Positions 9,824-46,715 of a DNA stretch of 64,000 nucleotides are shown here, piece after piece. Under the pieces are notes generated by a model, which made no database searches, was not told the origin of the DNA, and was given only the letters and a program-made list of their open reading frames with translations. The position numbers and the translations under genes are program-made. The stretch comes from Acidobacteriota bacterium (GTDB lineage: Bacteria > Acidobacteriota > Terriglobia > Acidiferrales > UBA7541), in assembly GCA_003166795.1 (NCBI GenBank), contig PMUS01000096.1, positions 1,619 through 65,618 of the forward strand. The letters are read 5' to 3'. Each line of letters opens with the position of its first letter. The stretch's first letter is position 1.

Positions 9824-9853
9824 AAAGTACGCCGGGAAATCAAGGAGGCAGGC

Positions 9854-14966: not shown

Positions 14967-14997
14967 GAATATCTCTCCTTTCCCCGCCGTTACCGAA

Positions 14998-16200: not shown

Positions 16201-16348
16201 GGCTCACCTCAGAGGGGATGCAGGCTCCATCGTCACTTCCTGCTCCATTGGATGCCACTGGACAAAAAAAAGCAACCGCACAGGGATTTCGAGCCGTACG
16301 AAAAAGCAGCGTCAACGGAACTGGAAGTATCGGAGCTACGATCGATCG

Positions 16349-18184: not shown

Positions 18185-18323
18185 AGTACGAACGGCCGCA
18201 TGCCGTTCCCCCTGAAAAAGCCTGATTTATGGCTGCTATTGCAATTTTCGGCGAGAGGAATAGTTGCGGCAATAGTACCTTCGTACCCCCGGGAAACATT
18301 CGCCTCGAAACGGCTCGGGAAGA

Positions 18324-20750: not shown

Positions 20751-20849
20751 CAATTTTAGCCTCTGGCAGGGGACATGGTTGCAAAAGCGCCATCGCCGGT
20801 CAACCGGAAACGCCCCGCGATCCGCGAAGTTTGCTAAAGTGTCCGATAG

Positions 20850-27017: not shown

Positions 27018-27081
27018 CACACCCCTCCACTCGTCGGTCACACGCTAGTCGTTCATCAAATTTCGCTTGAGGGATCGTGCT

Positions 27082-28437
27082 ATGAAATCAATGTGCATCG
27101 TGGTGCTTTCGCTTCTCTTCTCATCGTCGTTCGCGGCGGCTCAGCAAACGAACGGCACCGGCCCAATGCCGGGCATGCAGGGAATGGACATGAGCCAGAT
27201 GCCGGGCATGAAGATGGGCGCGAACGACCAAATGAACATGGCCCCGCAAACCTTCGTGCAGGAAATTCTCGCGCACGATACCTCTGGCACGAGCGCGGAA
27301 CCCGATTCCACCCCTGCTCCCATGCTGATGAAAATCAAAGGCGCGTGGACGCTGATGTTTCACGCGAATGTGTTCGTGCTCGACGAGCAGCAATCGAGCG
27401 CGCGCGGCGGCGACAAATTTTTCTCGACCAACTGGTTCATGGGCATGGCTCAACGCGACCTCGGCCCCGGCAAATTCACCGTGCGGGCGATGCTGACCCT
27501 TGAGCCGGCGACGATTACCGGCGAACGCTACCCGCTGCTCTTCCAACAGGGCGAGACAGCCTACGGCGTCCCCATCGCGGACGGCCAGCATCCGCACAAC
27601 TTCGTCATGGAACTCGCCGCGCTTTACGACGCGAAACTTGGCGCGAAAGGACTGCTGTCCTTCTACGCTGCGCCGGTCGGCGACCCAGCGCTCGGTCCCA
27701 CCGCGTATCCGCACCGCGCGTCCGCCGCCGAGGACCCGGTCGGCGCCCTCGGCCATCATCAGGAGGATTCCACGCACATTGCGGCGGATGTCGTCACCGT
27801 GGGGCTCACCTACGGCATCGCGCGTATCGAAGCATCCGGCTTCCACGGCCGCGAACCGGGCGAAGACCGATGGGACGTTGACCAGGGCAACATCAACTCG
27901 TGGTCCACGCGCCTGACTATTCAGCCGGGGAAAAACTGGAGCGGGCAGTTTTCCTACGGCCGCATCAAGAGTCCGGAAAGTCTCTTCCCTGCTGAAGATC
28001 AGGAGCGCATGACCGCGTCCGCGATGTACAACCGCCCGCTGCGCGATGGGAACTGGACGAGTACCATTCTGTGGGGGCGCACGCGTTCACTGCAGGACGA
28101 CGCCATATTCGATAGCTACCTCGTCGAATCCACCGTGCGCTTTCGCGCGCGCAATTACGCGTGGACCCGAATTGAAAGTGCGGAACGCTCGAACGAGCTC
28201 ATCCTCGGCGAGAATCCGCTGCCGCCCGGCTTCGAGGAAAAACCCATTGGACAAGTGCAGGCCTACACGCTCGGCTACGATCGAGATTTCGATCTGATTC
28301 CCGACCTCGCGTCCGCCATCGGCGCGCAGTTCACCACCTACGGCGTCGCGGATATCCTGAAGCCTATTTACGGTTCGCACCCCGTGGGCGTCGCCCTGTT
28401 CATCCGATTGCGGCCGTTCTCGGGCAAAGACCGCTGA
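27082..28437 (+). CDS. putative outer-membrane beta-barrel protein with Met-rich (Cu-binding-like) N-terminal region
   Basis: The signal peptide is MKSMCIVVLSLLFSSSFAAAQQ. It is followed by MPGMQGMDMSQMPGMKMGANDQMNM. The rest alternates in an amphipathic way, rich in G/Y/W/R, and ends in ALFIRLRPF. Confidence 0.6.
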   Translation: MKSMCIVVLSLLFSSSFAAAQQTNGTGPMPGMQGMDMSQMPGMKMGANDQMNMAPQTFVQEILAHDTSGTSAEPDSTPAPMLMKIKGAWTLMFHANVFVLDEQQSSARGGDKFFSTNWFMGMAQRDLGPGKFTVRAMLTLEPATITGERYPLLFQQGETAYGVPIADGQHPHNFVMELAALYDAKLGAKGLLSFYAAPVGDPALGPTAYPHRASAAEDPVGALGHHQEDSTHIAADVVTVGLTYGIARIEASGFHGREPGEDRWDVDQGNINSWSTRLTIQPGKNWSGQFSYGRIKSPESLFPAEDQERMTASAMYNRPLRDGNWTSTILWGRTRSLQDDAIFDSYLVESTVRFRARNYAWTRIESAERSNELILGENPLPPGFEEKPIGQVQAYTLGYDRDFDLIPDLASAIGAQFTTYGVADILKPIYGSHPVGVALFIRLRPFSGKDR

Positions 28438-33651: not shown

Positions 33652-36498
33652 ATGGTAGATTCCAAGCAAGTCCGACTGAACGAACTGGCGCGAGAACTTG
33701 AGATCAAGGCCAAGGTGCTGATCGACTACCTGCCTGAGATCGGCGTCAAAGAGAAGAAGACGCACTCGAGTTCGATTGATATCGAGCACGCCGAGCTGGC
33801 ACGAAAACATTTCCTTGGTCTGGCAGAGGCGGAAGTAGCGGCGGAAGCCGCGAAGACCGCGGCGGCCAAAGCAAAGACCGCGCGTCCGGCGCCTGCAGCT
33901 GCTCCGGCACCGGCCCCCGTAGCGGCCCCACCGAAACCGGCCGGGCCGGCGGCTGTACCACTTCGCGGAGCGCCTGTGGCCCCGGCCGCTCCCGTGCGAG
34001 CGCCAGCGGGAGCGGCCGCCGCGCCCGCGGCTGCTTCACCTAGTGGCGTTCCGGTGCGACCCGCTGCAACTCCGTCCGCGCCTCTTGCGGCAGCTGGACA
34101 TCCGACTTCGCATCCGACCGCAGCCAGGCCCGGCGTCGCTCCCGGAGCGACTGCGCCGAGACCCGGCGCGTCTCCGGCGCAACGCCCAGCGGCGGCGAGT
34201 CCCGCTGCAGGTAGTTCGACAGGTGCGCCCGGAGCTCCACGTCCGCCAGGCGCGCCGCCAACAGGCCAGAGATTCCCTGCGCGCCCAGGCCAGTCGGGCC
34301 CTTACCAAAATCGCCCCGGCGCTCCCCAGGGAATGCGCCCCGCGGCAGCGCCAGGCCAAATTCGGCCCAGCGGTCCACCGAGACCGGGTGGCCCACCTCG
34401 TCCCGGCGGCCCTCCATCGAGATTTCCACCCCGGCCAGGAGGCGGAGGACGTCCCGGAAACGAACCCATTGGCAGCCAGCGGCCCGGGGCCACAGGCGGA
34501 GTTCCGAAAGCTGAGCCTGGAAAGCCCCTGTATGCACGTAAGCCTCCCCCGTCGCGCGGGCGGCCGACAATCGAAAAGCGATATGCGGAAGGTGAGCGCA
34601 GGCTTCACCCAGTGCGAACACGCGCCGGAGTGGGCGCAGGCCGCGCCGCGCACGTAGAGCCCGTCGCGCCGGTCCAGCGAGAGCCGCGTGCGGTGACCGT
34701 CACCGAAGGAATCACGGTTCGCGAGCTCGCCGAGAAGCTCGATATCCGCGCCAAGGAATTGCTGAAGACTTTGCTCGATAAGGGCGTTTTCGCGAGCATT
34801 AACCAGGCGCTCGACGTGCAGACTGCGACCAGTCTCGCTGAATCGTTCAATGGAATCGTGCAGGTGGTGACGTACGAAGAGCAGCTTGTCGAGGAAGAAA
34901 AGATCGAGGAGGGGCGCACCGGAAATCTGCTGCCTCGCGCCCCGGTTGTCACCGTGATGGGGCACGTAGATCACGGCAAGACCAGTTTGCTCGACGCCAT
35001 TCGCGAAACCGAAGTCGCCGCCGGAGAAGCCGGCGGGATCACGCAACACATTGGGGCGTACGAAGTGCACGCGGGCGATCGCCGCATCGTGTTTATTGAC
35101 ACACCGGGCCACGAAGCGTTCACGCGCATGCGCGCGCGCGGCGCGAAAGTGACCGACATCGTGGTGCTGGTGGTGGGCGCGGACGACGGCGTGATGCCGC
35201 AGACCGAAGAAGCGATCGCGCACGCGAAAGCCGCGAACGTTCAGATCGTCGTGGCCATCAACAAGATTGACAAGCCGAACGCCGAGCCCGAAAAAGTGAA
35301 ACGCCAGCTCGCCGACCGCGGCCTGATGCCCGAGGAGTGGGGCGGCACGACCGTAACGGTGGAAGTCTCGGCCAAAACGAAAAAGAATTTACCGCGTTTG
35401 TTGGAGATGATTTTGCTCGTGGCCGATTTACTCGAGCTAAAGGCTGATCCCGATGCCCCGGGAAGCGGTACGGTGCTGGAATCGCGCATGGACAAGGGCC
35501 GCGGCCCAGTCGCCACAGTGCTCGTGCAAAACGGCACGCTCAACGTCGGAGACGTCTTCATCGTTGGCGCCGTGTACGGCAAGGTCCGCGCGATGTTCGA
35601 CGATCGCGGCCATTCAATCTTGAAAGCGGTGCCTTCCACGCCGGTTGAGGTTCTCGGTTTGCAGGGCGTGCCCGAAGCGGGCGATCAGTTCCAGGTGGCG
35701 GACGAAGCGAAGGCGCGGCACATCGTCGAATACCGCCAGGCAAAACAGCGCGAGGCCGCGCTCGCCAAGACAGCTTCCTCCGGGCGCCTTACTCTCGATC
35801 AGCTGCACGCGCAGTTGCGCGCCGGCGAGGTGAAAGAACTGGCCGTGGTTGTGAAGGCGGACGTGCAGGGCTCGGTCGAAGTACTGAACGAGATGCTCCC
35901 GAAGCTTTCTAACGACCAGGTGACGCTAAAGGTGATGCAGGCCAGCGTGGGCGCAGTGACGGAATCCGACGTGATTCTCGCGTCCGCTTCGAACGCCGTG
36001 GTTATTGCGTTCAACGTGCGGCCGGAGCGAAAGGCTTCCGAGCTGGCGCAGCGCGAGGGCGTGGAAATCCGCCTGCACACGATTATCTACGAATTGCTCG
36101 ACGAGCTGCGCAAGGCCGTGGCCGGATTGCTCGCGCCGGTGATCAAGGAAGTGTATCTGGGACGCGCCGAAGTCCGCGACACGTTCCGCGTGAAGGGCTC
36201 CGGAGTAATCGCGGGCTGCTCGGTGCAGGATGGAATCATCAAGCGCAACGCGGACGTGCGGGTACTGCGCGACGGCGCGGTGGTCTACACCGGGCAAGTA
36301 AGCTCGCTGCGAAGATTCAAGGAAGACGCGGGCGAAGTGCGCGCGGGATTCGAGTGCGGCGTGGGAGTTTCGAATTTCAACGACGTGAAAGTGGGCGACA
36401 TCCTCGAATGCTTCAAGATCGAGAAGTCGTCGCCGCTCGAGGCCGTCGTGGTGCCCGACCGCGGGCGACCGGAAGCCGCTGAAGCGCGGCGCAACTGA
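33652..36498 (+). CDS. infB: translation initiation factor IF-2
   Basis: 948 aa with a Pro/Ala-rich N-terminal region. The G domain carries [22 protein letters not shown] and NKID. Confidence 0.97.
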
Positions 36499-37197: not shown

Positions 37198-37251
37198 CGG
37201 GGCGCGCAGCCCTTGCAGTTGACCGGCTCGAATCCGGCGCTACGAAGCGAA

Positions 37252-38226
37252 ATGCCGCGAACCCCACAACCTGCGTCCATTGACGGAATTCTTGTCGTTT
37301 ACAAGCCACGCGGGAAAACCTCGCACGACGTGGTGGAAACCGTGCGCCGCATGGTTGGCTTTCGCCAGATCGGCCATCTCGGCACGCTCGATCCGCTGGC
37401 GACCGGCGTGCTCGTGCTCGCTCTGGGGCGGGCCACGCGGCTCGCGCGCTTCTACGGCGGCCGTCGAAAACGATACACCTGCTCGGTGCGCTTCGGATTC
37501 GCGACGGACACATACGACGCCGATGGAGACGCGCTCAGCGAAGATGCCGCGCCGTCGCTTGATGCGGAGGCGATTCAGGCGCTCGCCGACGGTTTCGTCG
37601 GGAAAATTCAGCAGATGCCGCCTTCGTTTTCGGCGAAGAAAATCCACGGGCGTCCCGCGCACGAACTCGCGCGAAAACACAAGCCGGTGAAGCTCGATTC
37701 CGTCGAGGTGGAAGTGAACGAATTCCGGCTCACGAGTGTGGAAGGATCCGCCGCGCGCTTTACGGTGGAATGCGGGTCGGGCACGTACATTCGATCGCTC
37801 GCGCACGACCTGGGAAAGTTGCAAGGAACGGGCGCGCACCTCGCGGAGATCGTCCGCACCGCCGTGGGTGAGTTCACTCTCGATCATGCCGTCACGCTCG
37901 CGGAGCTGGCCGAGGACGCGAAGGCCGGAAAGCTGGATGCGCGCGTGATTCGACTGGAAAACATGCTGCCGGAATTGCCAAGAGCCGTGGTGCTGCCAAT
38001 CGTGGAGAAGCGCGTGCGGCACGGCGCGAAATTCAATCTTCCGCTCGCTCAAATTCAACCGGGCCGCACGATCGCAGCCCAAGGAGCGCCCGCGCGACTG
38101 GATTCCGGCGAATGGCAGCCGTCGCGGCTACGCGTATTCAACCAGCAGGGACAGTTGATCGCAATCGCGGAGCCCGTCGTGCCCCGCACGTACCAGCCGG
38201 TGGTTGTCCTCGAAGCCACGCCATAG
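37252..38226 (+). CDS. truB: tRNA pseudouridine(55) synthase TruB
   Basis: GILVVYKPRGKTSHDVV and GHLGTLDPLATGVLVLALGRATRL (catalytic Asp) are present. The start is at ATG 37252 rather than the upstream TTG. Confidence 0.92.
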   Translation: MPRTPQPASIDGILVVYKPRGKTSHDVVETVRRMVGFRQIGHLGTLDPLATGVLVLALGRATRLARFYGGRRKRYTCSVRFGFATDTYDADGDALSEDAAPSLDAEAIQALADGFVGKIQQMPPSFSAKKIHGRPAHELARKHKPVKLDSVEVEVNEFRLTSVEGSAARFTVECGSGTYIRSLAHDLGKLQGTGAHLAEIVRTAVGEFTLDHAVTLAELAEDAKAGKLDARVIRLENMLPELPRAVVLPIVEKRVRHGAKFNLPLAQIQPGRTIAAQGAPARLDSGEWQPSRLRVFNQQGQLIAIAEPVVPRTYQPVVVLEATP

Positions 38227-38335: not shown

Positions 38336-41300
38336 CTACTGTTGCGGCGGAGGCTGCGGAGCAGGCGCTGGCGGCCCGGGGGCAGGTTCCGCCGGCGGCG
38401 GAGGCGCCGCTCCGGGCGGCACCGGCTGGCCGGGAGGCGGCGTGAAGACCGGCGCAGCTTCGGCTCCGCCTGGACCTTCGAGCGAACCCTGGCCGGCATA
38501 GACGACGTGGTCCTTGCGCGGCGATAGCCGGACCAGGCGCGGCGTCACGAGAATCAGCAGTTGGCTATCTTGTTTCTGGTTGTTCTGATCCTGGTCAAGC
38601 AAGCCGACGCCGGGAACTTCGGCGACTCCAGGGTTTCCGGTGATGGCGTTCGAGAGTTGCGTTTCGCGAAATCCAGCGACGATGGCTGTTTCATTCTGCT
38701 TGAGCCGCACGGTCTGCTGCACGGACTCGTTGCTGATCACCGGGATCGCATTGAAGCTCTGCGCGGTCACGCTGCTGATCTCGAACGAGAGATCGAGCGT
38801 CACGTCATTATCCGGATGGATGCGCGGCGTGGCTTTCACCTTCAGTCCGATGTCGAGATATTGCGCGCCGGGGAACTGCGTGCCCGCCGAGCTGAGCCCC
38901 GAACCGAGAAGGTCGATCGAGTTCAGGATCACGGTGGCCTCCGCGGATCCATTATCCGCGGTGGCGGCGTCTGGCCTGCCGTCACCATTGAAATCGGCCG
39001 TGACGATGGAAACAGGATCCGTGCCGACCGGTATCTCGGGAATGGTAGAGGTGAAAACGCCGGTGCCCTCGTTGAAAAGGATCGTAACCGCGTTGTCAGT
39101 GGAATCCGACAGCGCGATATCGGGGAAACCGTCCTGATTGAAGTCGGCCACCGCGATTGACGTCGGTCCGGTCCCGGCAGCGTAGGTGGCCGGGGCGGTG
39201 AATGTCCCGTTTCCTGTGTCAATCTGGTTCGGATTCGGATTCCCGAAAAAAATTGTAACGCTGTTGCCGGTTACGCCGGTGCCGTTCGTTGCGGTGGAAG
39301 GCGCTCCGCTATTGGCGATAGCGAGATCGGTCACGCCATCTCCGTTGAAATCCGCGGTGGCCACAAAAGCGGGCGTGTTCCCCACCACATAAGGCGACTG
39401 CGGTGCCTGAGTGAAGGTGCCATCGCCATTGCCGAGCAAGATCTGCACGATGCCTGCATTGTTGCTGACGGTGGCCTCCTCGGTGACAACCAGGTCCGTG
39501 TGGCCGCTATTGGTGAAGTGCCCCGTGGCGAGCGAGGTTGGTGCGAAACCCGAGGGGAGCTGGACCAGGGTGGGTGGCTTGAAGGTGCCGTCGCCATTCC
39601 CCTGATAGATCGTAATCGTGTCATCGGTCTGATTGGCGACGGCAAGATCCAGGAAGCCTGTTGCCGCGATATCGTGAAAATCGGCGGCAACGACGCAAAC
39701 GGGCGCCTTGCCAGTCGGTATGTCGGTGCCGGCAACGAACGTGCCAGTCGCGGTGCTGGTGCTGTCCTCCTGTCCGAGAAGAATCGAAACCGTGTTCGAT
39801 CCCTTGTTGGCGACGGCAAGATCAATGGTCGGGTTGTTGGTTGCATCGAACGAGCCGGTTGCGATCCAGACCGGATCGGTATCGGTGGTCGCGCCCAGCG
39901 GGTAGGCCACTTGATTTGCGAATGTGCCGTCGCCATTGCCGAGCAGAACCGAGACGGTATTGTCCGCCGAATTCGCGACGATCAAATCATAAAAGGTGCC
40001 GTCAACAGTGCTATTGCCGCGCAGGATGTTGGTGGCCACGAAGGACGGCGAATTCCCTGTCGCATAATTCACGAGCGGATTGGCAATCGTGCCGGGACTG
40101 TTCAGCGTCCCGTTCAGGAGACTGGGAGAAAAAGTGGAAAGCGAAACGGGAATGCGGTCGCCGACAAAAAACGTGGCGGGCTGGCCGTCCTGGACGCGGA
40201 GGAGAACCCGGCGGCCGTGGCGCACGAGCGAAAGCATTTGCGCGAAATTCGCCGAAGCGCCCGGAAGCTGCGCGAAAAAAGTCGTCAGGCCCCCGCCGAA
40301 AGCGATCACATTCGGAGTCGAGGTTCCCAGGACCTGCTCGATCACGTCAATGAGACCCTCCTCGGACGCCGCGGCTTGCTGAATCTGCTGCGAACTGACC
40401 GTGAACACCTGCGCGCTCTGCGGAGGGGTGATGCCGAGATTCAGCGCGTTCGTGCGATCCACTTCAAGGATTTCGATTTCCAGAATCAGCTCGCCGGTGG
40501 GCCGCTCGAGATCGTCAATCAAGTCCGTGGCCAGAGCGACAGCCTGCGGCGACGCGCGCAACGTGAGCGTGCGAGCGCGAGGATCGAGTTCCGAGCGTGT
40601 GATGCCCGCGACTTCGCGCACCAGGCGTGTAATTTCGGTCATCTGCTCGGGCGTTTCAGAAGCAGGCAGCAGAACGGTGCGGACGACCGATGCTTCGTAC
40701 TCCTTGCGCTTCTGCGGAGTATTTTCGGTGACGAAAAAAAGGCGCGGCGTCAGCGCTCGCCAAAAGGTTCCGGTCATGTCGCCCAGCAGCCTCGCGGCCG
40801 TCGGAAAATCAACGTCGTCGTAGTGGAATCGAATCTGCCGCGAATGCAGATCCACGTCGAAGGCAACTTCCAATCCGAACTGGCGCCCGAGTTCTTCGTA
40901 GGCTCCCTCCGTGTCCCCGCGATAATCGAAGTTCCGGTTACCGGTCTGATACTCGAGGTGCGGCTCGCCGGCCAGTTCAACCACCGGCGTCTTGGGGAGT
41001 TGGCCGGCCTCTGCGACGGCCAACTGCGCCAGCCGCTCGCGCACCGTCGAGCTTAGGGGGTCCAGGAAGCTCGCGCTGAGCAATTGCTTGCGCGCGTCAT
41101 CCAGGCGGCCGGAAATCGCGTCGCGCTCCGCGGCGTCCATTTTGGATTGAACCAGGCGGCTCTTCGCAATTTCGCGGTGCAGGGCATATTCACGATTGGC
41201 GGGCGCCCAGTTGGCGGCATCCGTGTAGGCGGTGTAGGCCGCATCCCAGTCTTGCTGCCGTTCGGCTTGAGTTCCCTGCTCGTATGCGGTCTTGGCCTTC

Positions 41301-41482
41301 TTGACGTCCGCCTTGTCCGGCTTGTTGGTGGAAACCGGAACGGGAGATTGTGACGGTGCCTGCGTGCGCGCGGACGGCGCTAGAAAAATGGCGATGACGA
41401 CCGGCACGAGGATGGCCCTCGTCCAAGCATGGAAGGTGCGCGAGGCGCCGGAGCGGTCTGCGGAATAAGCTCTAATTACCAT
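38336..41482 (-). CDS. secretin-family outer-membrane protein with an internal seven-blade FG-GAP/VCBS propeller and a Pro-rich C-terminal tail
   Basis: 1048 aa with a signal/anchor AILVPVVIAIFLAPSARTQA. The two secretin C-domain halves are ELILEIEILEVDRTNALNLG...FFVGDRIPV and YLDIGLKVKATPRI...NPGVAEVPGVGLL...LLILVTPRLV. Between them lie seven repeats of the ADFNGDG...LLGNGDGTF type. Confidence 0.85.
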   Translation of the reverse strand: MVIRAYSADRSGASRTFHAWTRAILVPVVIAIFLAPSARTQAPSQSPVPVSTNKPDKADVKKAKTAYEQGTQAERQQDWDAAYTAYTDAANWAPANREYALHREIAKSRLVQSKMDAAERDAISGRLDDARKQLLSASFLDPLSSTVRERLAQLAVAEAGQLPKTPVVELAGEPHLEYQTGNRNFDYRGDTEGAYEELGRQFGLEVAFDVDLHSRQIRFHYDDVDFPTAARLLGDMTGTFWRALTPRLFFVTENTPQKRKEYEASVVRTVLLPASETPEQMTEITRLVREVAGITRSELDPRARTLTLRASPQAVALATDLIDDLERPTGELILEIEILEVDRTNALNLGITPPQSAQVFTVSSQQIQQAAASEEGLIDVIEQVLGTSTPNVIAFGGGLTTFFAQLPGASANFAQMLSLVRHGRRVLLRVQDGQPATFFVGDRIPVSLSTFSPSLLNGTLNSPGTIANPLVNYATGNSPSFVATNILRGNSTVDGTFYDLIVANSADNTVSVLLGNGDGTFANQVAYPLGATTDTDPVWIATGSFDATNNPTIDLAVANKGSNTVSILLGQEDSTSTATGTFVAGTDIPTGKAPVCVVAADFHDIAATGFLDLAVANQTDDTITIYQGNGDGTFKPPTLVQLPSGFAPTSLATGHFTNSGHTDLVVTEEATVSNNAGIVQILLGNGDGTFTQAPQSPYVVGNTPAFVATADFNGDGVTDLAIANSGAPSTATNGTGVTGNSVTIFFGNPNPNQIDTGNGTFTAPATYAAGTGPTSIAVADFNQDGFPDIALSDSTDNAVTILFNEGTGVFTSTIPEIPVGTDPVSIVTADFNGDGRPDAATADNGSAEATVILNSIDLLGSGLSSAGTQFPGAQYLDIGLKVKATPRIHPDNDVTLDLSFEISSVTAQSFNAIPVISNESVQQTVRLKQNETAIVAGFRETQLSNAITGNPGVAEVPGVGLLDQDQNNQKQDSQLLILVTPRLVRLSPRKDHVVYAGQGSLEGPGGAEAAPVFTPPPGQPVPPGAAPPPPAEPAPGPPAPAPQPPPQQ

Positions 41483-41608
41483 CGTATCTAGGATGCATAT
41501 TGTACAAGGATCGGCTTCCGCGGGCAGGGGCCTGAATGTGCTTGATTTTAATGGGTCGGAAATATAGACTCGAATCGTAGTTGAAACCGATTTACAACTG
41601 GGATACTC

Positions 41609-42871
41609 ATGCTTTCCGCTCTTTTGGTGGCCCTCCGGGAAGGCGTCGAAGCCGCGCTTGTCGTCGGCATTGTACTCGTTTATCTAAATCGTAGCGGACG
41701 GCGCTCCCTGAAGGTGTACGCCTGGGCTGGCGTCCTGCTGGCCTGCGCTGCAAGCGTTGCCGCTGCCCTGTTACTCCAACGCTGGGCCATCAGCGAGGAT
41801 GGCTTTGAGGGCCTGCTGATGTTGCTGGCGGCGGTGCTCGTTGTCACCATGATCGTGTGGATGAACCGCGTGGCGCGCACCCTGCGAAAGGACATCGAGC
41901 GGCGCGTCGAGGCATACGCGCAGCAGTCCACGCGGGCTGCCGGGTGGGGCGTCGGGGCGTTCGTGTTCTTCATGGTGGTGCGCGAGGGCGCGGAACTGGT
42001 CCTGATCCTGCGCGCAGTGGAGCTTTCGACTGCCGGCGTGCAAGTCTGGATCGGAACGCTGTTGGGGATCGCCATCGCGGTCGGCGTGGGATACTTTTTC
42101 TTTCAGGGCACGCTGCGGATTCCGCTGCACCGATTTTTCACGGCGACAAGCGTCATTCTGACGGTGGTCGCTTTCCAACTGGCGCTCACAGGGGTTCACG
42201 AGTTGAGCGAGGCGATGTGGATCTGGTCGAGCAAGACGGAAATGGCATGGGTCGGGCCGGTCGTCCGCAACGAGGTTTTCTTTTTCGCCTTGATTCTGGG
42301 TGTGGCGGCGCTGGTGGTGCTGCGGGAATGGTTCAGCGCCCGGCGGCCAGCCGACGATTCCGCGGCAAATCCCGCCGAGCGGCGCATGCGCGAATGGGAA
42401 TTCCGCCGACAGCGGCGATGGAGTTTTGCGGCCGCCATCCTGTGTTCGCTCGTGGTGGTTTCGCTCGCGGCCGAGTTCGCCTATGCCCGCGCGACGAACG
42501 CCCCTTCACCGGGGAAAATGCTCGCCGTAGAAAATAATCGCGTCCGCATCCCTCTTTCCGAACTGACCGACTCGAGCCTGCATTTTTATACCGCCGAGGT
42601 GAACGGCACCGTGATCCGTTTCCTGGTGATCCACCAGACGAATGGCGATTACGTGACGGCTCTCGATGCATGCCAGATATGTGGCCGCAAAGGATACCGC
42701 CAGGAAGGGCAGAACATCATCTGCCGGAATTGCGGGGCGTCCATCTACGTTCCTTCAATCGGCGACCACGGCGGTTGCAATCCCATCCCCGTGAAATCGA
42801 GTGTGGCAGGGGGAGAAGTGATCGTAGATCTTTCGGCGCTCGCGGATGCCACCGCGATGATTCACTCCTAG
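41609..42871 (+). CDS. FTR1-family iron permease fused to a C-terminal DUF2318 (Cys-rich, Cj1660-like) domain
   Basis: Two RExxE motifs (REGVEAALVV, REGAELVLIL) sit in the TM region. The C-terminus is ALDACQICGRKGYRQEGQNIICRNCGASIYVPSIGDHGGCNPIPV. Confidence 0.8.
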   Translation: MLSALLVALREGVEAALVVGIVLVYLNRSGRRSLKVYAWAGVLLACAASVAAALLLQRWAISEDGFEGLLMLLAAVLVVTMIVWMNRVARTLRKDIERRVEAYAQQSTRAAGWGVGAFVFFMVVREGAELVLILRAVELSTAGVQVWIGTLLGIAIAVGVGYFFFQGTLRIPLHRFFTATSVILTVVAFQLALTGVHELSEAMWIWSSKTEMAWVGPVVRNEVFFFALILGVAALVVLREWFSARRPADDSAANPAERRMREWEFRRQRRWSFAAAILCSLVVVSLAAEFAYARATNAPSPGKMLAVENNRVRIPLSELTDSSLHFYTAEVNGTVIRFLVIHQTNGDYVTALDACQICGRKGYRQEGQNIICRNCGASIYVPSIGDHGGCNPIPVKSSVAGGEVIVDLSALADATAMIHS

Positions 42872-42872
42872 C

Positions 42873-44153
42873 ATGTTTGCCCGCCTCGTACGCGAGTCCT
42901 TCGTCCGCAATCCGCGCCGCAAGGTGCTGACAGCCGCGGCGCTAGTCGTGGGCATGGCCGTGGCGACGGCGACGCTGACGGTGGCGCTGGAAGTGGGCGA
43001 CCGCCTCGCGCGGGAATTTCGCAGCCTCGGCGCCAACCTGATCGTCACCCCCGAATCGGACACTTTGCCGCTGGAAATTGGAGGCGTTGATTACCGCCCG
43101 GTGGATGAAGGCGCATATCTGTCCGAGGCCGATCTCGGCAAGCTGAAGACGATTTTCTGGCGGCACAATATCCTCGGCTTCACGCCATTTCTCGACGTAC
43201 CAACGATCGCCGCAGGCATGCGCACCACGATGGTCGGCACGTGGTACGAACATGAAGTGCCTGTGCCGGACGGCACGAGTTTCGAGACCGGTCTGAAAGC
43301 TACGCACCCCTCGTGGCAGATTGAGGGCCGGTGGTTCCGCGACGGCGCGGATGAAGTCGTCGTGGGCGCGGCGCTCGCCGCGCGGAATCCGGATGCCTTC
43401 GCCATCGGGAAAACAATCCAAGTCACCCAAAGCGAACCGTCGGATGCGGCGCGGGCGCTGGTGATCACTGGAATCGCGACGACGGGCGACTCGGAGGACA
43501 ACGCCATTCTCGTTCCCCTCTCGTTCGCGCAGCAATATTCGGGACACCCGGGGCAATTCCGGCAGCTTTTCGTGAGCGCTCTGACAAAACCAGCCGATGC
43601 GCTTGCGAATCGCGATCCGAAATCGCTGACGCCAACGGAGTACGACCGCTGGTTCTGTTCGCCCTACATCTCTTCCATCAGCTATCAGATCCGGCAGGTA
43701 ATTCCGGGCGTTGACGTGCGCGCGATCCGCAAAGTGGCGGATTCGGAGGGAAAGATTCTGTCGCATGTGAGCACACTGCTCTGGATCGTGACGCTCGCGG
43801 CTCTGATTGCGGCGGCGCTCGCCGTGGCGGCGACATCGGCGACAACCGTGATCGAGCGGCGCGGAGAAATCGGCATCATGAAGGCGATTGGAGCGACGAA
43901 CGCCATGGTCGCGGGACTTTTTCTGGCGGAGCAGCTGATGCTCGCGGTTGTGGGGGGCGCTATCGGTTTTCTTTTCGGAGCCGGCCTCGCTAGAATTCTG
44001 GGCGCAAGCGTGTTTGGCACGCCGGCCGCGCCGCGCGTCGTGCTGCTTCCGGTGGCGCTTGGAATCGCCGCGCTCGTTGCATTGATCGGCAGCCTGATTC
44101 CCCTGAGGCGGGCGGCGCGATTCGATCCCGCGCCGATTCTGCGGGGAGAGTAA
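42873..44153 (+). CDS. ABC transporter permease, FtsX/MacB-type
   Basis: 426 aa: an N-terminal TM, a large periplasmic domain, and a C-terminal FtsX bundle (MKAIGATNAMVAGLFLAEQL). The ATG lies 1 nt after the upstream stop. Confidence 0.85.
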   Translation: MFARLVRESFVRNPRRKVLTAAALVVGMAVATATLTVALEVGDRLAREFRSLGANLIVTPESDTLPLEIGGVDYRPVDEGAYLSEADLGKLKTIFWRHNILGFTPFLDVPTIAAGMRTTMVGTWYEHEVPVPDGTSFETGLKATHPSWQIEGRWFRDGADEVVVGAALAARNPDAFAIGKTIQVTQSEPSDAARALVITGIATTGDSEDNAILVPLSFAQQYSGHPGQFRQLFVSALTKPADALANRDPKSLTPTEYDRWFCSPYISSISYQIRQVIPGVDVRAIRKVADSEGKILSHVSTLLWIVTLAALIAAALAVAATSATTVIERRGEIGIMKAIGATNAMVAGLFLAEQLMLAVVGGAIGFLFGAGLARILGASVFGTPAAPRVVLLPVALGIAALVALIGSLIPLRRAARFDPAPILRGE

Positions 44154-45313
44154 TGTTCGGGCGCCTTCTCTGGAAATTACTTCGAGGCAATCGCGGGCGG
44201 CTGACGGTGGCGCTGGTGGCCGTGATCAGCGGCGCTGCCGTAATTTCCGCCCTCTTGAATCTCGAATTTGACGTCGAACGCAAGCTGACCCAGGAATTCC
44301 GCCTGCTCGGCGCAAACATCGTAATTTCGCCCGGCAACCCCGCGCAAGCGAACGACGCACCAAGCAATTCGCCTGCGACCTCCGCGTCGCCCGCTCTGAT
44401 GAGCGAGGCTGCGGTCCTTCCACAGGTTGACCGCATGCGCACGAGCGACGTGGTGGCATCCGCGCCTTACGTCTATATCGTGGCGCGCGCGCACGATACT
44501 CCCATTGTGGTTGCCGGGACGTGGCTCGACGAGGCGCGCAAGCTCGAGCCAACCTGGAAGCTCGAAGGAGAGGCGATCGCATCGCGCGGTGACGCGACAC
44601 AGTGTTACGTGGGACGCGACGTGGCGCGTCAATTCGACGTGGCGCCCGGCGGTCAACTTGAATTGGATTATCTGGGGCGAAGCGCGCGGCTGACTATCGC
44701 CGGTGTCGTGGATGCCGGAGGCGCCGAGGATAGTCAGGTGTTCGTGAATCTTGCGGTTGCGCAAAAGCTGGCGGGTCTGGAAGGCCAGATTCAATTCGTG
44801 CAATTAAGCGTGAGCGGAACTGCCGCAAGCATCGGCGGCTATGCCGGGCGATTGGCGAATTCCCTGCCCGGCTACGACGTGCGCCCGATCCGGCAGGTGA
44901 CCGAAGCGGAAGGCAATCTGCTGAGCCGCACGCGGCTGCTGATTGCCTCGATGGTGGTGCTGATCCTGGCGCTTACGGCGCTGTGCGTGCTGGCGACAAT
45001 GGCCGCGCTCGCGATGGAGCGGCGCGCGGACGTGGGCCTGATGAAGGCTCTCGGCGGAACAATGTCGCGCATTGTAGGATTGTTCCTCGCCGAAGTGGGC
45101 GTGCTCGGCGCGGCTGGCGGATTGATCGGATGCGTCGCGGGCGTGGCGCTGGCGCAGTGGATGGGGCACCGCGTCTTCGGGACCTCCATCACCCCGCGCT
45201 GGGAAATCTTCCCGCTTACGATCGCTTTGATGATAGCCGTGGCCATGATGGGCGCGCTGCCCCTGCGACGATTAGGGAAAGTGAAGCCGGCTGTGATTCT
45301 GAGGGGCGAATAG
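44153..45313 (+). CDS. ABC transporter permease, FtsX/MacB-type
   Basis: 386 aa with the same architecture (MKALGGTMSRIVGLFLAEVG). There is a TAATG stop/start overlap with the upstream gene. Confidence 0.85.
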   Translation: MFGRLLWKLLRGNRGRLTVALVAVISGAAVISALLNLEFDVERKLTQEFRLLGANIVISPGNPAQANDAPSNSPATSASPALMSEAAVLPQVDRMRTSDVVASAPYVYIVARAHDTPIVVAGTWLDEARKLEPTWKLEGEAIASRGDATQCYVGRDVARQFDVAPGGQLELDYLGRSARLTIAGVVDAGGAEDSQVFVNLAVAQKLAGLEGQIQFVQLSVSGTAASIGGYAGRLANSLPGYDVRPIRQVTEAEGNLLSRTRLLIASMVVLILALTALCVLATMAALAMERRADVGLMKALGGTMSRIVGLFLAEVGVLGAAGGLIGCVAGVALAQWMGHRVFGTSITPRWEIFPLTIALMIAVAMMGALPLRRLGKVKPAVILRGE

Positions 45314-45978
45314 TGGCTGTGCTGGTCCAAATCGAGAACCTGCGAAAAGAGTTTGGGAACGTGTGCGCGCTCGACGGCGTGACGTTCGATGTGCAAGCAG
45401 GCGAATGGATCGCCATCATGGGGCCTTCAGGCTCGGGCAAGACGACACTGATCAATATTTTGGGCGGGCTAGACACGCCAACTTCTGGGCGAGCGATAGT
45501 GGACGGCGCGGACGTGGGGCGGCTCGACGAAAGCGGGCTAGCGCGATTTCGTTCGGAGAAGATCGGCTTCATATTCCAGCAATTTCATCTGGTGCCGTAC
45601 TTGACGGCGATTGAAAACGTGATGCTCGCGCAGTATTTTCACAGCACGACGGACGAAACCGAGGCCCGCGAAGCTCTCGGGCGCGTGGGCCTCACCGATC
45701 GCGTCGAGCATTTGCCGGGACAGCTTTCCGGCGGCGAGCAGCAGCGCGTGGCCGTGGCGCGGGCGCTGATCAACCACCCTAAATTAATTCTCGCCGACGA
45801 GCCCACCGGAAATCTCGACGAGGCGAACGAGGGAATCGTGCTGAAGCTCCTGCGCGAGTTGCATTCCGAGGGGCACACGATCCTGATGGTGACGCACGCT
45901 GCTTCGATCGGGCAATTGGCCGACCGCCGAATCGAGCTCGCGCACGGCCGCCTCGCGCAGGTAAACGTACGAGTCTAA
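45313..45978 (+). CDS. ABC transporter ATP-binding protein (MacB/LolD-like)
   Basis: GPSGSGKTT (Walker A), LSGGEQQRVAVARAL and ILADEPTGNLD are present. The GTG start overlaps the upstream TAG (TAGTG). The in-frame region upstream in the track ORF is not coding for this protein. Confidence 0.9.
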   Translation: MAVLVQIENLRKEFGNVCALDGVTFDVQAGEWIAIMGPSGSGKTTLINILGGLDTPTSGRAIVDGADVGRLDESGLARFRSEKIGFIFQQFHLVPYLTAIENVMLAQYFHSTTDETEAREALGRVGLTDRVEHLPGQLSGGEQQRVAVARALINHPKLILADEPTGNLDEANEGIVLKLLRELHSEGHTILMVTHAASIGQLADRRIELAHGRLAQVNVRV

Positions 45979-46055
45979 TCACAGGCTTGCATTCTTCGTG
46001 CAGCTAACGGGTGCGCTCGTGGGCCCTCGATTGTCCCCGGGCTTATACTTCCGGA

Positions 46056-46715
46056 ATGGAAGAACGCATACAAGTTGATGTGAGCCAATACTCCTTCGAT
46101 GAATTCATTTCATTCCTGTTCGCTCGGGGTGTTCCTGGCAAGACTGAGGAATACGATCCTTGGTATTTCCATGTCGAAGTGACATTTGCGCCTCGGAGGG
46201 TCTGCGACTATTACCTTCAACTGTTTCGGCAGCCGGAATTTCTTCTCAAACGGTTCTCCAAAGATCAAATTGAGGAGGGTTTCTGGGTAATTCAAGGCCC
46301 CAATCTTGACTGTTCAGTATCCCGTCTAATCTGGAACGCCGATGTAGAGTTTCCGGTGCGAGAAGAGTGCGTACGAACCATGTTCGATCTATATAAGCGC
46401 CTTTTCGCCGTTGAACATCTGGATAGCTCGGCTCAGATGTGGTGGGATTCAATCTGTTACGACTGGCACTGCGGTAACAGGAATCGCGACAGAGGTGGTG
46501 AGGATTTGGAGATGCAGGATGTCATATTTGAAACGCTCTCCAGAATTCTCTCGCTGGGCTCTGAGTTCTGCCAGCGTGCTGCGCTTCACGGCTTGGGTCA
46601 CCTTCACCATCCCGAGACGCAAGAACTTGTTGATTTATATCTGAAATCGCATCTTTCGCTGAGCGAGGAATCTAGGGCGTACGCTCTCGCTGCCGCTAAG
46701 TTTGAAGTGTTATGA
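46056..46715 (+). CDS. hypothetical protein in a low-GC islet
   Basis: 219 aa from MEERIQVD. GC counted on two 60-nt lines is 48-50%, versus about 65% in the flanks. No family recognised; LHGLGHLHHPETQELV looks like a HEAT-type helix pair. Confidence 0.6.
   Translation: MEERIQVDVSQYSFDEFISFLFARGVPGKTEEYDPWYFHVEVTFAPRRVCDYYLQLFRQPEFLLKRFSKDQIEEGFWVIQGPNLDCSVSRLIWNADVEFPVREECVRTMFDLYKRLFAVEHLDSSAQMWWDSICYDWHCGNRNRDRGGEDLEMQDVIFETLSRILSLGSEFCQRAALHGLGHLHHPETQELVDLYLKSHLSLSEESRAYALAAAKFEVL

What the first reader, a model, noticed from the sequence alone, without database searches (positions are those of the whole stretch)
38336..41482. Orphan secretin whose C-domain is split by a complete seven-blade FG-GAP propeller
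Residues about 331-450 (ELILEIEILEVDRTNALNLG ... LRVQDGQPATFFVGDRIPV) and about 873-985 (QYLDIGLKVKATPRIHPDNDVTLDLSFEISSV ... GNPGVAEVPGVGLL ... LLILVTPRLVRL) read as the two halves of one GspD/PilQ/pIV-type secretin domain. Between them lie about 410 aa (nt about 38888-40120). This insert contains seven FG-GAP/VCBS-like blades, for example FVATADFNGDGVTDLAIAN, IAVADFNQDGFPDIALSD, IVTADFNGDGRPDAATAD, with blades closing on LLGNGDGTF-type turns. As I recall the pIV/GspD alignments, the short loop between the VGxxVP strand and the following xxVGxxLxV strand belongs to the inner gate hairpin. If that holds, every protomer of a 12-15-mer ring would carry a roughly 45-kDa propeller at or near the gate. 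A conventional channel could not accommodate that. The protein also has a TPR-like N-terminal segment and a C-terminal poly-Pro tail (PPPGQPVPPGAAPPPPAEPAPGPPAPAPQPPPQQ). No T2SS, T4P, Tad, T3SS or filamentous-phage partner gene lies within the window. Its only close neighbour is the divergently transcribed FTR1 iron-uptake cluster, across a 126-bp shared upstream region.
Basis: partly seen in the sequence, partly recalled or inferred. Interest (0 to 1): 0.78.

Follow-up and report, generated by a model that had tools for sequence, protein, structure and literature searches.

The report
Secretin with propeller inside its gate
An outer-membrane channel protein (secretin) of uncultured soil Acidobacteria carries a complete integrin-like seven-bladed propeller spliced into the tip of the hairpin that normally seals the pore. 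The arrangement is conserved in hundreds of species, is undescribed in the searched literature, and cannot fit a conventional closed secretin channel.

Summary
ORF 38336-41482 (-), 1048 aa, is a secretin whose C-domain is interrupted by about 410 aa. Pfam Secretin matches only profile positions 46-169; deleting the insert in silico restores 16-169 and a colinear alignment to GspD. Alignment to M13 pIV puts the insert between the Gate 1 hinge glycines (G441, G879, invariant in 146 sequences). It replaces the loop that lies at the pore centre.

The insert is a seven-bladed integrin-alpha-like FG-GAP propeller (pLDDT about 95). It is under purifying selection as strong as the barrel and is held by two short, length-constrained tethers. 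At least 421 species genomes encode a relative; the 80 best are essentially all Ca. Acidiferrales/Terriglobia.

Insert-less positional orthologues with a normal 40-aa Gate 1 exist. Other members add Big_2, He_PIG or PKD-like Ig domains at the same site. No T2SS, T4P, Tad or T3SS partner is nearby, and no curated secretin subfamily model is met. FTR1 adjacency is inherited synteny, decoupled from the propeller.

Twelve to fifteen propellers cannot fit inside a secretin barrel. My best, inferred, reading is a crown of adhesin-type domains displayed at the extracellular mouth. I rate it a new variant of a known kind, with high interest.

The parts
38336..41482 (-). Whole CDS, 1048 aa: TPR-like region, N0-like domain, N3-like domain, and a secretin domain with a propeller inserted in Gate 1
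   Evidence: ORF list. Pfam. A 100% identical protein, P0001, is seen on 51 contigs.
41360..41482 (-). N-terminal signal-like segment, aa 1-41, with hydrophobic stretch AILVPVVIAIFLA and no lipobox Cys
   Evidence: Read directly from the sequence. AF2 helix at 25-32. No signal-peptide predictor was run.
41003..41314 (-). TPR-like helical region, aa 57-160
   Evidence: Five helices at 60-159, pLDDT about 90. Weak hits to TPR_14 and to SGT TPR structures, E 0.044. Homologues carry TPR_2, TPR_11, TPR_14 and TPR_19 hits.
40718..40945 (-). N0-like periplasmic domain, aa 180-255
   Evidence: AF2 strand/helix order E183-190, H191-201, E205-208, E216-224, H226-237, E239-243, E248-253; pLDDT 85-93. The assignment as N0-like is inferred from topology.
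40499..40693 (-). N3-like (Secretin_N) ring-building domain, aa 264-328
   Evidence: Secretin_N scores 17-20 bits, below the 28.2 cutoff. Beta-alpha-beta-beta-alpha topology in AF2. Aligns to the N3 domain of GspD structures.
40145..40492 (-). Secretin domain, N-terminal half, aa 331-446. It ends with the inner-barrel strand and Gate 1 hinge glycine G441 (codon 40160-40162).
   Evidence: G441 is invariant in 146 sequences.
40076..40144 (-). N-side Gate 1 arm plus flexible tether, aa 447-469
   Evidence: pLDDT below 50 at 449-467. Family-wide length 18-29 aa, median 24. dN/dS 0.38-0.86.
38918..40075 (-). Seven-bladed FG-GAP, integrin-alpha-like beta-propeller, aa 470-855, 38.8 kDa. Three blades carry DxNxDGxxD loops: 711-719, 780-788 and 830-838.
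   Evidence: FG-GAP_3 E 2e-40. pLDDT about 95. Foldseek hits to integrin alpha at E 1e-11 and to the LGI1 EPTP propeller at TMt 0.76. dN/dS 0.09-0.22. Mass.
38864..38917 (-). C-side tether plus Gate 1 arm, aa 856-873
   Evidence: pLDDT below 50 at 861-871. Family-wide length 15-23 aa, median 18. dN/dS 0.12-1.14.
38513..38863 (-). Secretin domain, C-terminal half, aa 874-990: hinge glycine G879 (codon 38846-38848), inner-barrel strands, Gate 2 region (conserved N911, I913, P914) and the last outer-barrel strands
   Evidence: Pfam Secretin profile 46-169. pIV mapping. Invariant columns.
38339..38512 (-). Conserved post-barrel motif DHVVYAGQGS followed by a variable Pro-rich tail, aa 991-1048
   Evidence: Y995, G997 and G999 are conserved. 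The tail has pLDDT below 50.
41483..41608 (.). 126-bp divergent intergenic region shared with the FTR1 cluster
   Evidence: Sequence. No Fur-box match within 3 mismatches. No sigma-70-like site.
41609..45978 (+). Context only: FTR1/FtrD-like gene, two MacB-type FtsX permeases and an ABC ATPase. A functional link was not shown.
   Evidence: Pfam families. Adjacent in 63 of 71 loci but absent next to group A insert-less orthologues and next to some propeller-bearing ones.
37213..38226 (+). Context only: truB, the last gene of the rimP-nusA-infB-DUF503-rbfA-truB operon, convergent. It is the oldest syntenic anchor of this secretin gene.
   Evidence: Adjacent in 67 of 70 loci.

Best explanation
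SHOWN. This is a member of a distinct, orphan secretin clade of Acidobacteriota (Terriglobia, Ca. Acidiferrales). Its architecture is a TPR-like region, an N0-like domain, an N3-like domain and a secretin domain. A complete seven-bladed, integrin-alpha-like FG-GAP propeller is spliced into the tip of the Gate 1 hairpin, exactly where canonical secretins have the 15-25-residue loop that closes the pore centre. The insert is a discrete, selected, modular unit. Close relatives have no insert and an ordinary 40-residue Gate 1. Other relatives add Ig-like adhesin domains at the same site.

INFERRED. The protein still assembles as a 12-15-mer double-walled ring. Twelve to fifteen propellers of 38.8 kDa cannot be packed inside the barrel, and each is tied within a few nanometres of its Gate 1 tip. 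The Gate 1 hairpins are therefore most likely held in the raised, open-like position. Opening is known to pivot them upwards and outwards. The propellers would then emerge at the extracellular mouth as a crown of Ca2+-binding adhesin- or receptor-type domains, and this crown, rather than the loop tips, would cap the channel. On this reading the secretin barrel serves as an outer-membrane anchor and as the conduit for its own passenger domains. That is logically similar to an autotransporter or intimin, but built on a secretin scaffold. The fused N-terminal TPR region may substitute for a separate pilotin. The ligand is unknown.
For: - Split domain and exact Gate 1 mapping.
- Hinge glycines G441 and G879, and Gate 2 residues, are invariant in 146 diverse sequences.
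- Propeller fold: pLDDT about 95; Foldseek to integrin alpha at E 1e-11; PulD also matched, across the insert.
- Purifying selection on the propeller equals that on the barrel (omega 0.09-0.22 vs 0.07-0.21). The tethers are near neutral.
- Tether lengths are tightly constrained: 18-29 and 15-23 aa.
- Spacing between the secretin halves is strictly bimodal: 8 proteins with 23-25 aa, 254 with 276-685 aa.
- Insert-less positional orthologues exist.
- Extra Big_2 (x3), He_PIG (x2) and PKD-like domains lie inside Gate 1 in P0195 and P0159. These are typical cell-surface modules.
- K+R+E is 3-4% in the propeller and tethers, against 19-26% in the periplasmic N-domains, family-wide.
- The nearest non-secretin relatives are multi-propeller proteins with Ig-like modules.
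- Sterics: 5.6-7.0e5 A^3 of propeller against at most 2.9-3.9e5 A^3 of chamber. Inner barrel 90 A, gate aperture 40 A closed and 65 A open, and Gate 1 pivots 'upwards and outwards'. A single PilY1 fills the cavity above the PilQ gate.
- The protein evolves faster than its neighbours: 46-60% identity where FTR1 is 73-86% and TruB 71-86%.
Against: - Ring formation, stoichiometry and the side on which the propellers lie are all inferred.
- The AF2 monomer has pTM 0.49, so inter-domain placement is unreliable, and no coordinates were available.
- Moving 12-15 folded domains across the outer membrane, and sealing a channel whose Gate 1 is held up, are unsolved problems.
- FG-GAP repeats have a low-charge, Thr/Gly/Asn-rich composition wherever they occur, so the composition argument is confounded.
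- The strict conservation of hinge glycines and Gate 2 would equally fit a gate that still closes.
- All sequences come from MAGs or metagenomes, and expression was never shown.
Confidence: 0.5

Rival explanations
1. Periplasmic or luminal propellers. The propellers stay on the periplasmic side or within the vestibule. There they act as a permanent plug, a substrate or ligand receptor, or a regulated lid of an otherwise conventional channel.
For: - Secretin protomers fold and assemble from the periplasm, so no translocation of folded domains is needed.
- Gate 2 and both hinge glycines are strictly conserved, as expected if gating persists.
- A propeller contacting a secretin gate has a precedent in PilY1.
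Against: - The volume of 12-15 propellers exceeds any chamber of a canonical secretin about two-fold.
- The periplasmic side is enclosed by the N3 ring, a 74 A constriction in pIV.
- The tethers are too short (about 12-14 free residues each) to reach beyond the N-domain rings.
- The extra domains found at this site (Big_2, He_PIG, PKD) and the composition are of the extracellular type.
Confidence: 0.2
2. Conventional secretin used in trans. The protein is the outer-membrane pore of a type IV pilus, Tad or T2SS machine encoded elsewhere in the genome. The propellers swing aside with Gate 1 when the fibre or substrate passes, and they perhaps act as built-in PilY1-like corks or adhesins.
For: - The N0-N3-secretin layout, and the weak N-terminal similarity to the Amuc_1098 type IV pilus outer-membrane protein family.
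- The best PDB sequence matches are GspD and PilQ.
- Insert-less orthologues look like ordinary small secretins.
- The PilY1 cork precedent.
Against: - No partner gene lies within 64 kb here or within +/-10 kb in more than 80 loci in five different contexts.
- Scores are far below every curated subfamily cutoff, even for the contiguous orthologues: GspD 83 vs 351, PilQ 65 vs 284.
- With the gate raised, 24-30 tether chains and a crown would obstruct a 5-6 nm fibre.
Confidence: 0.15
3. Outer-membrane partner of the adjacent FTR1/MacB-type iron-uptake cluster. The propeller crown would capture an iron source and the secretin would admit it to the periplasm.
For: - The divergent arrangement across 126 bp.
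- The FTR1 cluster is adjacent in 63 of 71 species loci.
- In some relatives the cluster's ATPase carries an iron-dependent-repressor C-terminal domain.
Against: - All four combinations occur. Group A insert-less orthologues lack the cluster. Group B is insert-less with FTR1 adjacent. Propeller-bearing genes sit without FTR1 in L052, L065, L068, L072, L066, L070 and L057.
- truB adjacency is as frequent (67 of 70) and older, so the linkage looks like inherited synteny.
- No Fur box was found in the spacer.
Confidence: 0.1
4. Non-canonical assembly. The split secretin domain no longer forms a 12-15-mer double barrel. It could form a much wider ring, a partial ring, or a hetero-oligomer with another secretin that dilutes the propellers.
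For: - The steric conflict disappears if the stoichiometry or geometry differs.
- Barrel segments have only moderate pLDDT (50-88), with low-confidence loops at 351-359 and 406-417.
Against: - Barrel, hinge and Gate 2 residues are conserved as in canonical secretins and align colinearly to GspD and pIV.
- Insert-less relatives that are 70-76% identical outside the insert share the same scaffold.
- The gene appears once per assembly among the 80 loci, so no paralogous partner is evident at this locus.
Confidence: 0.12

Closest known systems
Secretin superfamily (Pfam PF00263): GspD/PulD, PilQ, phage pIV, InvG
   Same: The C-domain sequence aligns colinearly once the insert is removed. Both Gate 1 hinge glycines are conserved, as are the Gate 2 region, the final outer-barrel strands and the N3-like domain directly upstream. 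The N0-N3-secretin layout resembles pIV and PilQ.
   Different: Gate 1 is 438 residues from hinge to hinge, against 30 in pIV and 39-40 in the insert-less orthologues. It contains a folded 38.8-kDa propeller. The protein has no partner genes, an N-terminal TPR-like region, no S-domain and no AMIN domains, and it fails all curated subfamily cutoffs.
Insert-less orthologues of the same clade (P0213, P0270-P0275, P0277; 609-626 aa)
   Same: They have the same TPR-N0-N3-secretin scaffold (42-76% identity outside the insert) and the same chromosomal position next to the truB operon. They are also orphans.
   Different: They have an ordinary 39-40-residue Gate 1 and no propeller. They fall into two separate groups, so the propeller was gained or lost at least twice.
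PilY1 'champagne cork' in the P. aeruginosa PilQ secretin (PMC11525922)
   Same: [quoted passage not shown]
   Different: PilY1 is a separate protein, present once per machine and delivered on a pilus tip. Here the propeller is covalently inserted in every protomer's gate hairpin and no pilus genes are nearby. The propellers are not shown to be homologous.
Type V secretion: autotransporters and inverse autotransporters (intimin, invasin)
   Same: This is a works-like comparison only. An outer-membrane barrel carries covalently attached adhesin-type passenger domains (Big-type Ig domains in intimin; Big_2 inside Gate 1 of P0195). Those domains must pass through the barrel lumen as a hairpin.
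   Different: The barrel is an unrelated fold: a monomeric 12-16-stranded Omp85-dependent barrel, against a multimeric secretin. In type V the passenger is terminal rather than inserted in an internal hairpin. Self-export was not demonstrated here.
Integrin alpha-subunit and bacterial FG-GAP/VCBS beta-propellers
   Same: The fold is seven-bladed (Foldseek E 1e-11). FG-GAP repeats score E 2e-40. DxNxDGxxD loops of the integrin Ca2+-site type occur in blades 5-7 and are conserved.
   Different: Here the domain is used as an internal insertion in a membrane channel rather than as the head of a stalked receptor or a module of a giant secreted protein.

Membership tests
Secretin superfamily (PF00263) | Secretin C-domain HMM above the gathering score | tested here: met
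   88.9 bits against a cutoff of 27.5. The score rises to 99.6-100.3 bits with the insert removed.
Secretin superfamily (PF00263) | Contiguous C-domain with a short Gate 1 loop | tested here: not met
   The native protein matches only profile positions 46-169. Positions 16-45 lie about 410 aa upstream. Hinge-to-hinge distance is 438 aa, against 30 in pIV.
Secretin superfamily (PF00263) | Two conserved Gate 1 hinge glycines (pIV G267 and G297) | tested here: met
   G441 and G879 align to pIV G267 and G297. Both are invariant in 146 sequences.
Secretin superfamily (PF00263) | Periplasmic N0/N3 ring-building domains upstream of the C-domain | tested here: inconclusive
   Secretin_N scores 17-20 bits, below the 28.2 cutoff. 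The AF2 topology is consistent with N0-like and N3-like domains. The region aligns to GspD N3. Several homologues carry a precomputed PF03958 hit.
Secretin superfamily (PF00263) | 12-15-mer double-walled ring in the outer membrane | not testable with these tools
   Only single-chain prediction was available, and no coordinates were returned.
T2SS secretin GspD (TIGR02517) | Whole-protein score above the equivalog cutoff, and gspC-M neighbours | tested here: not met
   78.8 bits against a cutoff of 351. Insert-less orthologues score 82-84 bits. No T2SS Pfam family was found in the window or in related loci.
Type IV pilus secretin PilQ (TIGR02515) | Score above the subfamily cutoff, AMIN domains, pilMNOP neighbours | tested here: not met
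   65.4 bits against a cutoff of 284. Orthologues score 62-65 bits. There is no AMIN hit and no pil genes nearby.
T3SS secretin SctC, MshL, HofQ and Amuc_1098 families | Score above the curated cutoff | tested here: not met
   SctC 45.7 vs 238; MshL 47 vs 250; HofQ 31.7 vs 554; Amuc_1098 33.5 vs 750, N-terminal region only.
FG-GAP / integrin-alpha-type beta-propeller | FG-GAP repeats forming a closed seven-bladed propeller | tested here: met
   FG-GAP_3 E 2e-40 and FG-GAP E 4.7e-14. Seven repeats. pLDDT about 95. Foldseek hits to integrin alpha and LGI1 EPTP propellers.
FG-GAP / integrin-alpha-type beta-propeller | Ca2+ binding by DxDxDGxxD-type loops | not testable with these tools
   Motifs DFNGDGVTD, DFNQDGFPD and DFNGDGRPD are present and conserved. 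Metal binding itself was not tested.
Type V (auto)transporters (works-like comparison only) | Monomeric 12-16-stranded barrel with a terminal passenger | tested here: not met
   The barrel is a secretin domain and the passenger is internal. No autotransporter Pfam family was hit.
FTR1/P19-type iron-uptake system, as a component | Obligate co-occurrence with the FTR1/MacB cluster | tested here: not met
   The cluster is adjacent in 63 of 71 loci. It is absent in 8 of those loci and beside the group A orthologues. It is present beside insert-less group B.

The most novel reading that the evidence does not exclude
This would be a secretin that exports and displays its own gate. The multimeric channel threads the 12-15 adhesin-type domains spliced into its Gate 1 hairpins through its own lumen and holds them as a Ca2+-dependent integrin-like crown on the cell surface. 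That would be an autotransporter-like, self-contained surface-display system built on a secretin scaffold. It would need no inner-membrane machinery, ATPase or pilus, and it would have a swappable display site (propeller alone; propeller plus Big_2, He_PIG or PKD; or none).
Probability: 0.35. Interest if true: 0.88.

Novelty: new variant of a known kind. Interest (0 to 1): 0.76.

Why it matters
Gate 1 is the most conserved functional element of secretins. It seals the channel, and mutations in it make pIV leaky. Finding a folded 39-kDa domain spliced into its tip shows that the secretin scaffold tolerates, and has been repurposed for, something other than a loop-sealed pore. The evidence is that the domain is under purifying selection, occurs in hundreds of species, and has natural insert-less and multi-domain variants at the same site.

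If the propellers are surface-exposed, this would be a previously unrecognised way for diderm bacteria to anchor and present adhesin or receptor domains. It would also be an example of a secretin that works without any inner-membrane partner, and a natural blueprint for multivalent (12-15-fold) surface display.

The family also offers a direct experimental handle on gate mechanics, because near-identical proteins with and without the insert can be compared. Finally, it concerns an abundant but uncultured order of soil Acidobacteriota whose cell-surface biology is essentially unknown.

Tried and rejected
1. Single-sequence AlphaFold gave pLDDT 35.6 and was unusable. It cost one of the two structure jobs. 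The MSA-based run replaced it.

2. I looked for a regulatory link to iron in the 126-bp spacer. There was no Fur-box match within 3 mismatches and no sigma-70-like promoter. Terminator-like hits inside the gene were at chance level (4 found, 3.6 expected).

3. I tested a functional link to the FTR1 cluster. I rejected it as a necessary association because all four presence/absence combinations occur.

4. I looked for a conserved partner in loci that break synteny. The neighbours there are PolX, a methyltransferase, a Fer2/MoCo oxidoreductase, chorismate synthase, peptide deformylase, FemAB and a JAB protein. Nothing recurs that is secretion-related.

5. I expected the insert-less proteins to be a single outgroup, implying one insertion. 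This was rejected: they form two groups and never a single clan in 50 NJ bootstraps. The direction of change for group B remains unresolved, because I had only a distance tree and no outgroup.

6. A tblastn search of phages with the gate region found only one weak hit. I took pIV from M13 record V00604 instead.

7. I considered a pseudogene or an assembly artefact. I rejected both: dN/dS is 0.09-0.22, relatives are encoded in 421 species genomes (the 80 loci examined are near full-length), and an identical protein is seen on 51 contigs from three sources.

8. Six literature searches for secretin with FG-GAP, VCBS, propeller, domain insertion, orphan, or Acidobacteria found nothing relevant.

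Full report
**1. What is there**

The window contains a 1048-aa ORF on the minus strand at 38336-41482, exactly as reported. Pfam finds FG-GAP_3 (E 2e-40, six stretches), FG-GAP (E 4.7e-14) and Secretin PF00263. The Secretin hit scores 88.9 bits against a cutoff of 27.5, but it covers only profile positions 46-169, at residues 867-985. NCBIfam secretin models likewise match only their C-terminal parts.

I tested the 'split domain' claim by deleting the insert in silico. The N-terminal piece alone (aa 300-480) gives no Secretin hit. Joining aa 300-455 or 300-465 to aa 867/873-1000 extends the hit to profile 16-169 and raises the score to 99.6-100.3 bits. The same construct aligns colinearly to solved GspD structures across the junction, for example 5wq7 residues 311-572, with VGDRIPV opposite VGQDVPV. 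The secretin domain is therefore genuinely discontinuous.

**2. Where exactly the insert sits**

The f1 pIV cryo-EM paper (PMC8563730) defines Gate 1 as the loop bounded by two highly conserved hinge glycines, G267 and G297. [quoted passage not shown] Opening pivots Gate 1 'upwards and outwards' on these glycines.

I fetched the real M13 gene IV (V00604). Its mature numbering reproduces every residue the paper cites. In a MAFFT alignment, pIV G267 = G441, P271 = P445, G275 = S449, Q289 = P871 and G297 = G879. Gate 1 of this protein is thus 438 residues from hinge to hinge instead of 30. The insert (about aa 457-866, nt 38885-40114) replaces the pore-sealing tip. Both hinge glycines, P445, P871 and Gate 2 residues N911 and P914 are invariant in an alignment of 146 sequences with 36% mean column identity.

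**3. What the insert is**

The insert contains seven repeats, each ending in a conserved Asp (D499, D554, D612, D663, D719, D788, D838). Several close on GNGDGTF turns. Three carry DxNxDGxxD loops: DFNGDGVTD, DFNQDGFPD and DFNGDGRPD.

A single-sequence AlphaFold run was useless, with pLDDT 35.6. With the 146-sequence alignment the model reached mean pLDDT 78.7:

- about 95 over aa 470-855;
- 85-93 over five N-terminal helices (60-159) and two alpha/beta domains (183-253 and 266-326);
- about 50-88 over the barrel strands (lowest in the loops at 351-359 and 406-417);
- below 50 at 449-467 and 861-871, the two flanks of the insert.

Foldseek against the PDB returns seven-bladed integrin alpha propellers (E about 1e-11) and the LGI1 EPTP propeller (TMt 0.76). 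It also returns the secretin PulD, with an alignment spanning the insert.

**4. Is it a real, selected feature?**

The exact protein occurs on 51 contigs from NCBI, JGI and ENA. More than 120 clusters at 90% identity share the same length and domain set. A scan of one genome per species found 421 species genomes encoding a relative. The 80 best are essentially all Acidobacteriota (Terriglobia, Ca. Acidiferrales), apart from a few evidently mislabelled MAG contigs.

Nei-Gojobori dN/dS against five relatives is 0.09-0.22 for the propeller and 0.07-0.21 for the barrel halves. It is 0.4-1.1 for the two tethers, except one C-side estimate of 0.12. The tethers are free in sequence but tightly constrained in length: 18-29 aa (median 24) on the N side and 15-23 aa (median 18) on the C side. 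About half of each tether is the hairpin arm that the insert-less relatives also have. That leaves roughly 12-14 free residues per side.

**5. Natural controls**

An exhaustive search of 1.84 billion representatives revealed P0213 (621 aa). It has the same helical region, N-domains and both secretin halves, but no propeller. It is 42-47% identical to both halves of the window protein. Its relatives of 609-626 aa have a Gate 1 of only 39-40 residues.

Among 262 family members with both halves, the spacing is strictly bimodal. Eight have 23-25 aa and 254 have 276-685 aa, with nothing in between.

The insert-less genes are positional orthologues. They lie convergent with the rimP-nusA-infB-DUF503-rbfA-truB operon, as in the window.

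They form two groups:

- Group A (P0213, P0270-P0273, P0277) is a separate clade without the FTR1 cluster.
- Group B (P0274, P0275) is 70-76% identical, outside the insert, to propeller-bearing proteins. FTR1 is adjacent to P0275 in L089.

The two groups never form a single clan in 50 bootstrap NJ trees. The propeller has therefore been gained or lost at least twice. The direction of change for group B is unresolved.

In the other direction, over-length members carry extra domains inside Gate 1. P0195 has three Big_2 domains. P0159 has two He_PIG domains and a PKD-like domain. The Gate 1 tip thus behaves as a modular display site.

**6. Context**

Nearly every gene in the window was scanned (a few ORFs under about 140 aa were not). 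None hits a T2SS, T4P, Tad, T3SS or phage-assembly family, even at E 0.5 for the ORFs that had no hit.

The flanks are the truB operon (convergent, 109 bp away) and, divergently across 126 bp, FTR1/FtrD-like, two MacB-type permeases and an ABC ATPase. Across 80 species loci FTR1 is adjacent in 63 of 71 and truB in 67 of 70.

Several loci depart from this pattern:

- L052, L065, L068 and L072 keep truB but lack FTR1.
- L066, L070 and L057 have neither. There the gene lies between PolX plus a methyltransferase on one side and a Fer2/MoCo oxidoreductase on the other.
- Group A orthologues lack FTR1, while group B has it.

The FTR1 neighbourhood is therefore inherited synteny, decoupled from the propeller. 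No Fur box is present in the spacer. The secretin evolves faster than its neighbours: 46-60% identity where FTR1 is 73-86% and TruB 71-86%.

**7. Classification**

The protein is a member of the secretin superfamily by HMM score, hinge glycines and colinearity. Neither it nor its contiguous orthologues approach any curated system-specific cutoff:

| Model | Score (bits) | Cutoff (bits) |
|---|---|---|
| GspD | 79-84 | 351 |
| PilQ | 62-65 | 284 |
| SctC | 45-62 | 238 |
| MshL | 34-50 | 250 |
| HofQ | 30-53 | 554 |
| Amuc_1098 | 22-37 | 750 |

It is a distinct orphan clade with a TPR-like region, N0-like and N3-like domains and a secretin domain. The TPR region is supported by the model, by weak TPR hits and by clear TPR hits in homologues. 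From general knowledge, pilotins of T4P and Tad secretins (PilF, PilW, Tgl, TadD) are TPR proteins. A fused TPR could therefore make the secretin self-sufficient. That step is inference.

**8. Mechanism: shown versus inferred**

Shown: a folded, selected propeller is tethered by short linkers to the Gate 1 tip of every protomer.

Inferred from published dimensions:

- The pIV inner barrel is 90 A wide. The gate aperture is 40 A closed and 65 A open. The N3 constriction is 74 A.
- A single PilY1 of about 7.5 x 9.5 nm fills the cavity above the PilQ gate.
- Twelve to fifteen propellers need 5.6-7.0e5 A^3. A generous chamber offers 2.9-3.9e5 A^3.

The propellers therefore cannot lie inside a canonical barrel, and the gate cannot adopt the canonical closed state. 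The periplasmic side is enclosed by the N3 ring, and the tethers are too short to reach beyond it. The known direction of Gate 1 movement is toward the extracellular mouth. A radial, edge-on crown of 12-15 propellers would have a diameter of about 120-150 A at the propeller centres, which matches the barrel rim.

Four observations fit an extracellular location:

- The domain types found at this site (FG-GAP, Big_2, He_PIG, PKD) are typical of cell surfaces.
- The nearest non-secretin relatives are multi-propeller proteins with Ig-like modules.
- K+R+E is 3-4% in the propeller and tethers, against 19-26% in the periplasmic N-domains.
- The protein evolves fast relative to its neighbours.

My best reading (confidence about 0.5) is a secretin ring that displays a crown of Ca2+-binding adhesin- or receptor-type domains. 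It would be autotransporter-like in logic, with the crown capping the pore.

Weak points remain. There is no oligomer model. How folded domains would cross the outer membrane is unexplained, as is how the pore is sealed. The composition argument is confounded by the general FG-GAP repeat composition.

The rivals are a periplasmic plug or lid (0.2), a conventional secretin used in trans with distant pilus or T2SS genes (0.15), a non-canonical assembly (0.12) and a partner of the FTR1 system (0.1).

**9. Novelty**

None of the literature searches on secretin combined with FG-GAP, VCBS, propeller, domain insertion, orphan, or Acidobacteria returned a description of this architecture. Public annotations read only 'FG-GAP-like repeat-containing protein', 'hypothetical protein' or generic 'GspD/CpaC'. 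I rate it a new variant of a known kind.

The finding would surprise secretin specialists. It also comes with built-in natural controls (insert-less and multi-domain variants) that make the open questions directly testable.

Noticed in passing
window 41609-45978; L004 4898-5974; L090 5076-6152: The neighbouring iron-uptake cluster encodes FTR1 fused to a Cys-rich FtrD-like domain, two MacB_PCD/FtsX permeases and an ABC ATPase. In some relatives the ATPase carries a C-terminal iron-dependent-repressor (Fe_dep_repr_C) domain, an unusual fusion.
   Followed up: partly
window 46011-46715: This 234-aa ORF has an atypically low GC3 (0.53, against about 0.73 in neighbouring genes) and no Pfam family even at E 0.5. 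It is present only in the 100%-identical loci L001-L003, so it looks like a recent insertion between the ABC ATPase and the EVE-domain gene.
   Followed up: partly
window 33652-36498: IF-2 carries a Pro/Ala/Gly-rich low-complexity N-terminal extension of about 330 aa. Gene callers in related contigs often truncate or split this gene.
   Followed up: no
window 13188-20993: A fatty-acid beta-oxidation cluster (acyl-CoA dehydrogenase, thiolase, and a fused 3-hydroxyacyl-CoA dehydrogenase/enoyl-CoA hydratase) is interrupted by a 611-aa protein with only a C-terminal TonB_C domain (16349-18184).
   Followed up: no
window 6137-8206, 8801-10636, 27067-28437, 28540-30402: Four large ORFs (456-689 aa) have no significant Pfam family; one has a weak beta-helix hit. 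The last (28540-30402) is syntenic in many Acidiferrales loci at 66-86% identity, so it is a conserved unknown.
   Followed up: partly
L089 588-2423 and L090 10001-12955: An insert-less protein (P0275, 611 aa) and a propeller-bearing one (P0281, 984 aa) come from the same metagenome (JGI 3300038770). They are 73% identical outside the insert. Both are next to FTR1 and near truB (in L089, FBPase genes lie between the secretin and truB).
   Followed up: yes
L007, L040, L043, L049, L038, L087: These contigs are labelled Cybelea, Baltobacteraceae, Verrucomicrobiia, Polarisedimenticolia or Firmicutes. They carry the gene in typical Acidobacteriota synteny, with 75-96% identity in the flanking housekeeping genes. 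They are probably mis-binned or mislabelled MAG contigs.
   Followed up: partly
P0122 residues 647-858: One 1336-aa family member has an extra segment of about 210 aa within its propeller region that matches no Pfam family. This is a further, unidentified module at the Gate 1 display site.
   Followed up: no
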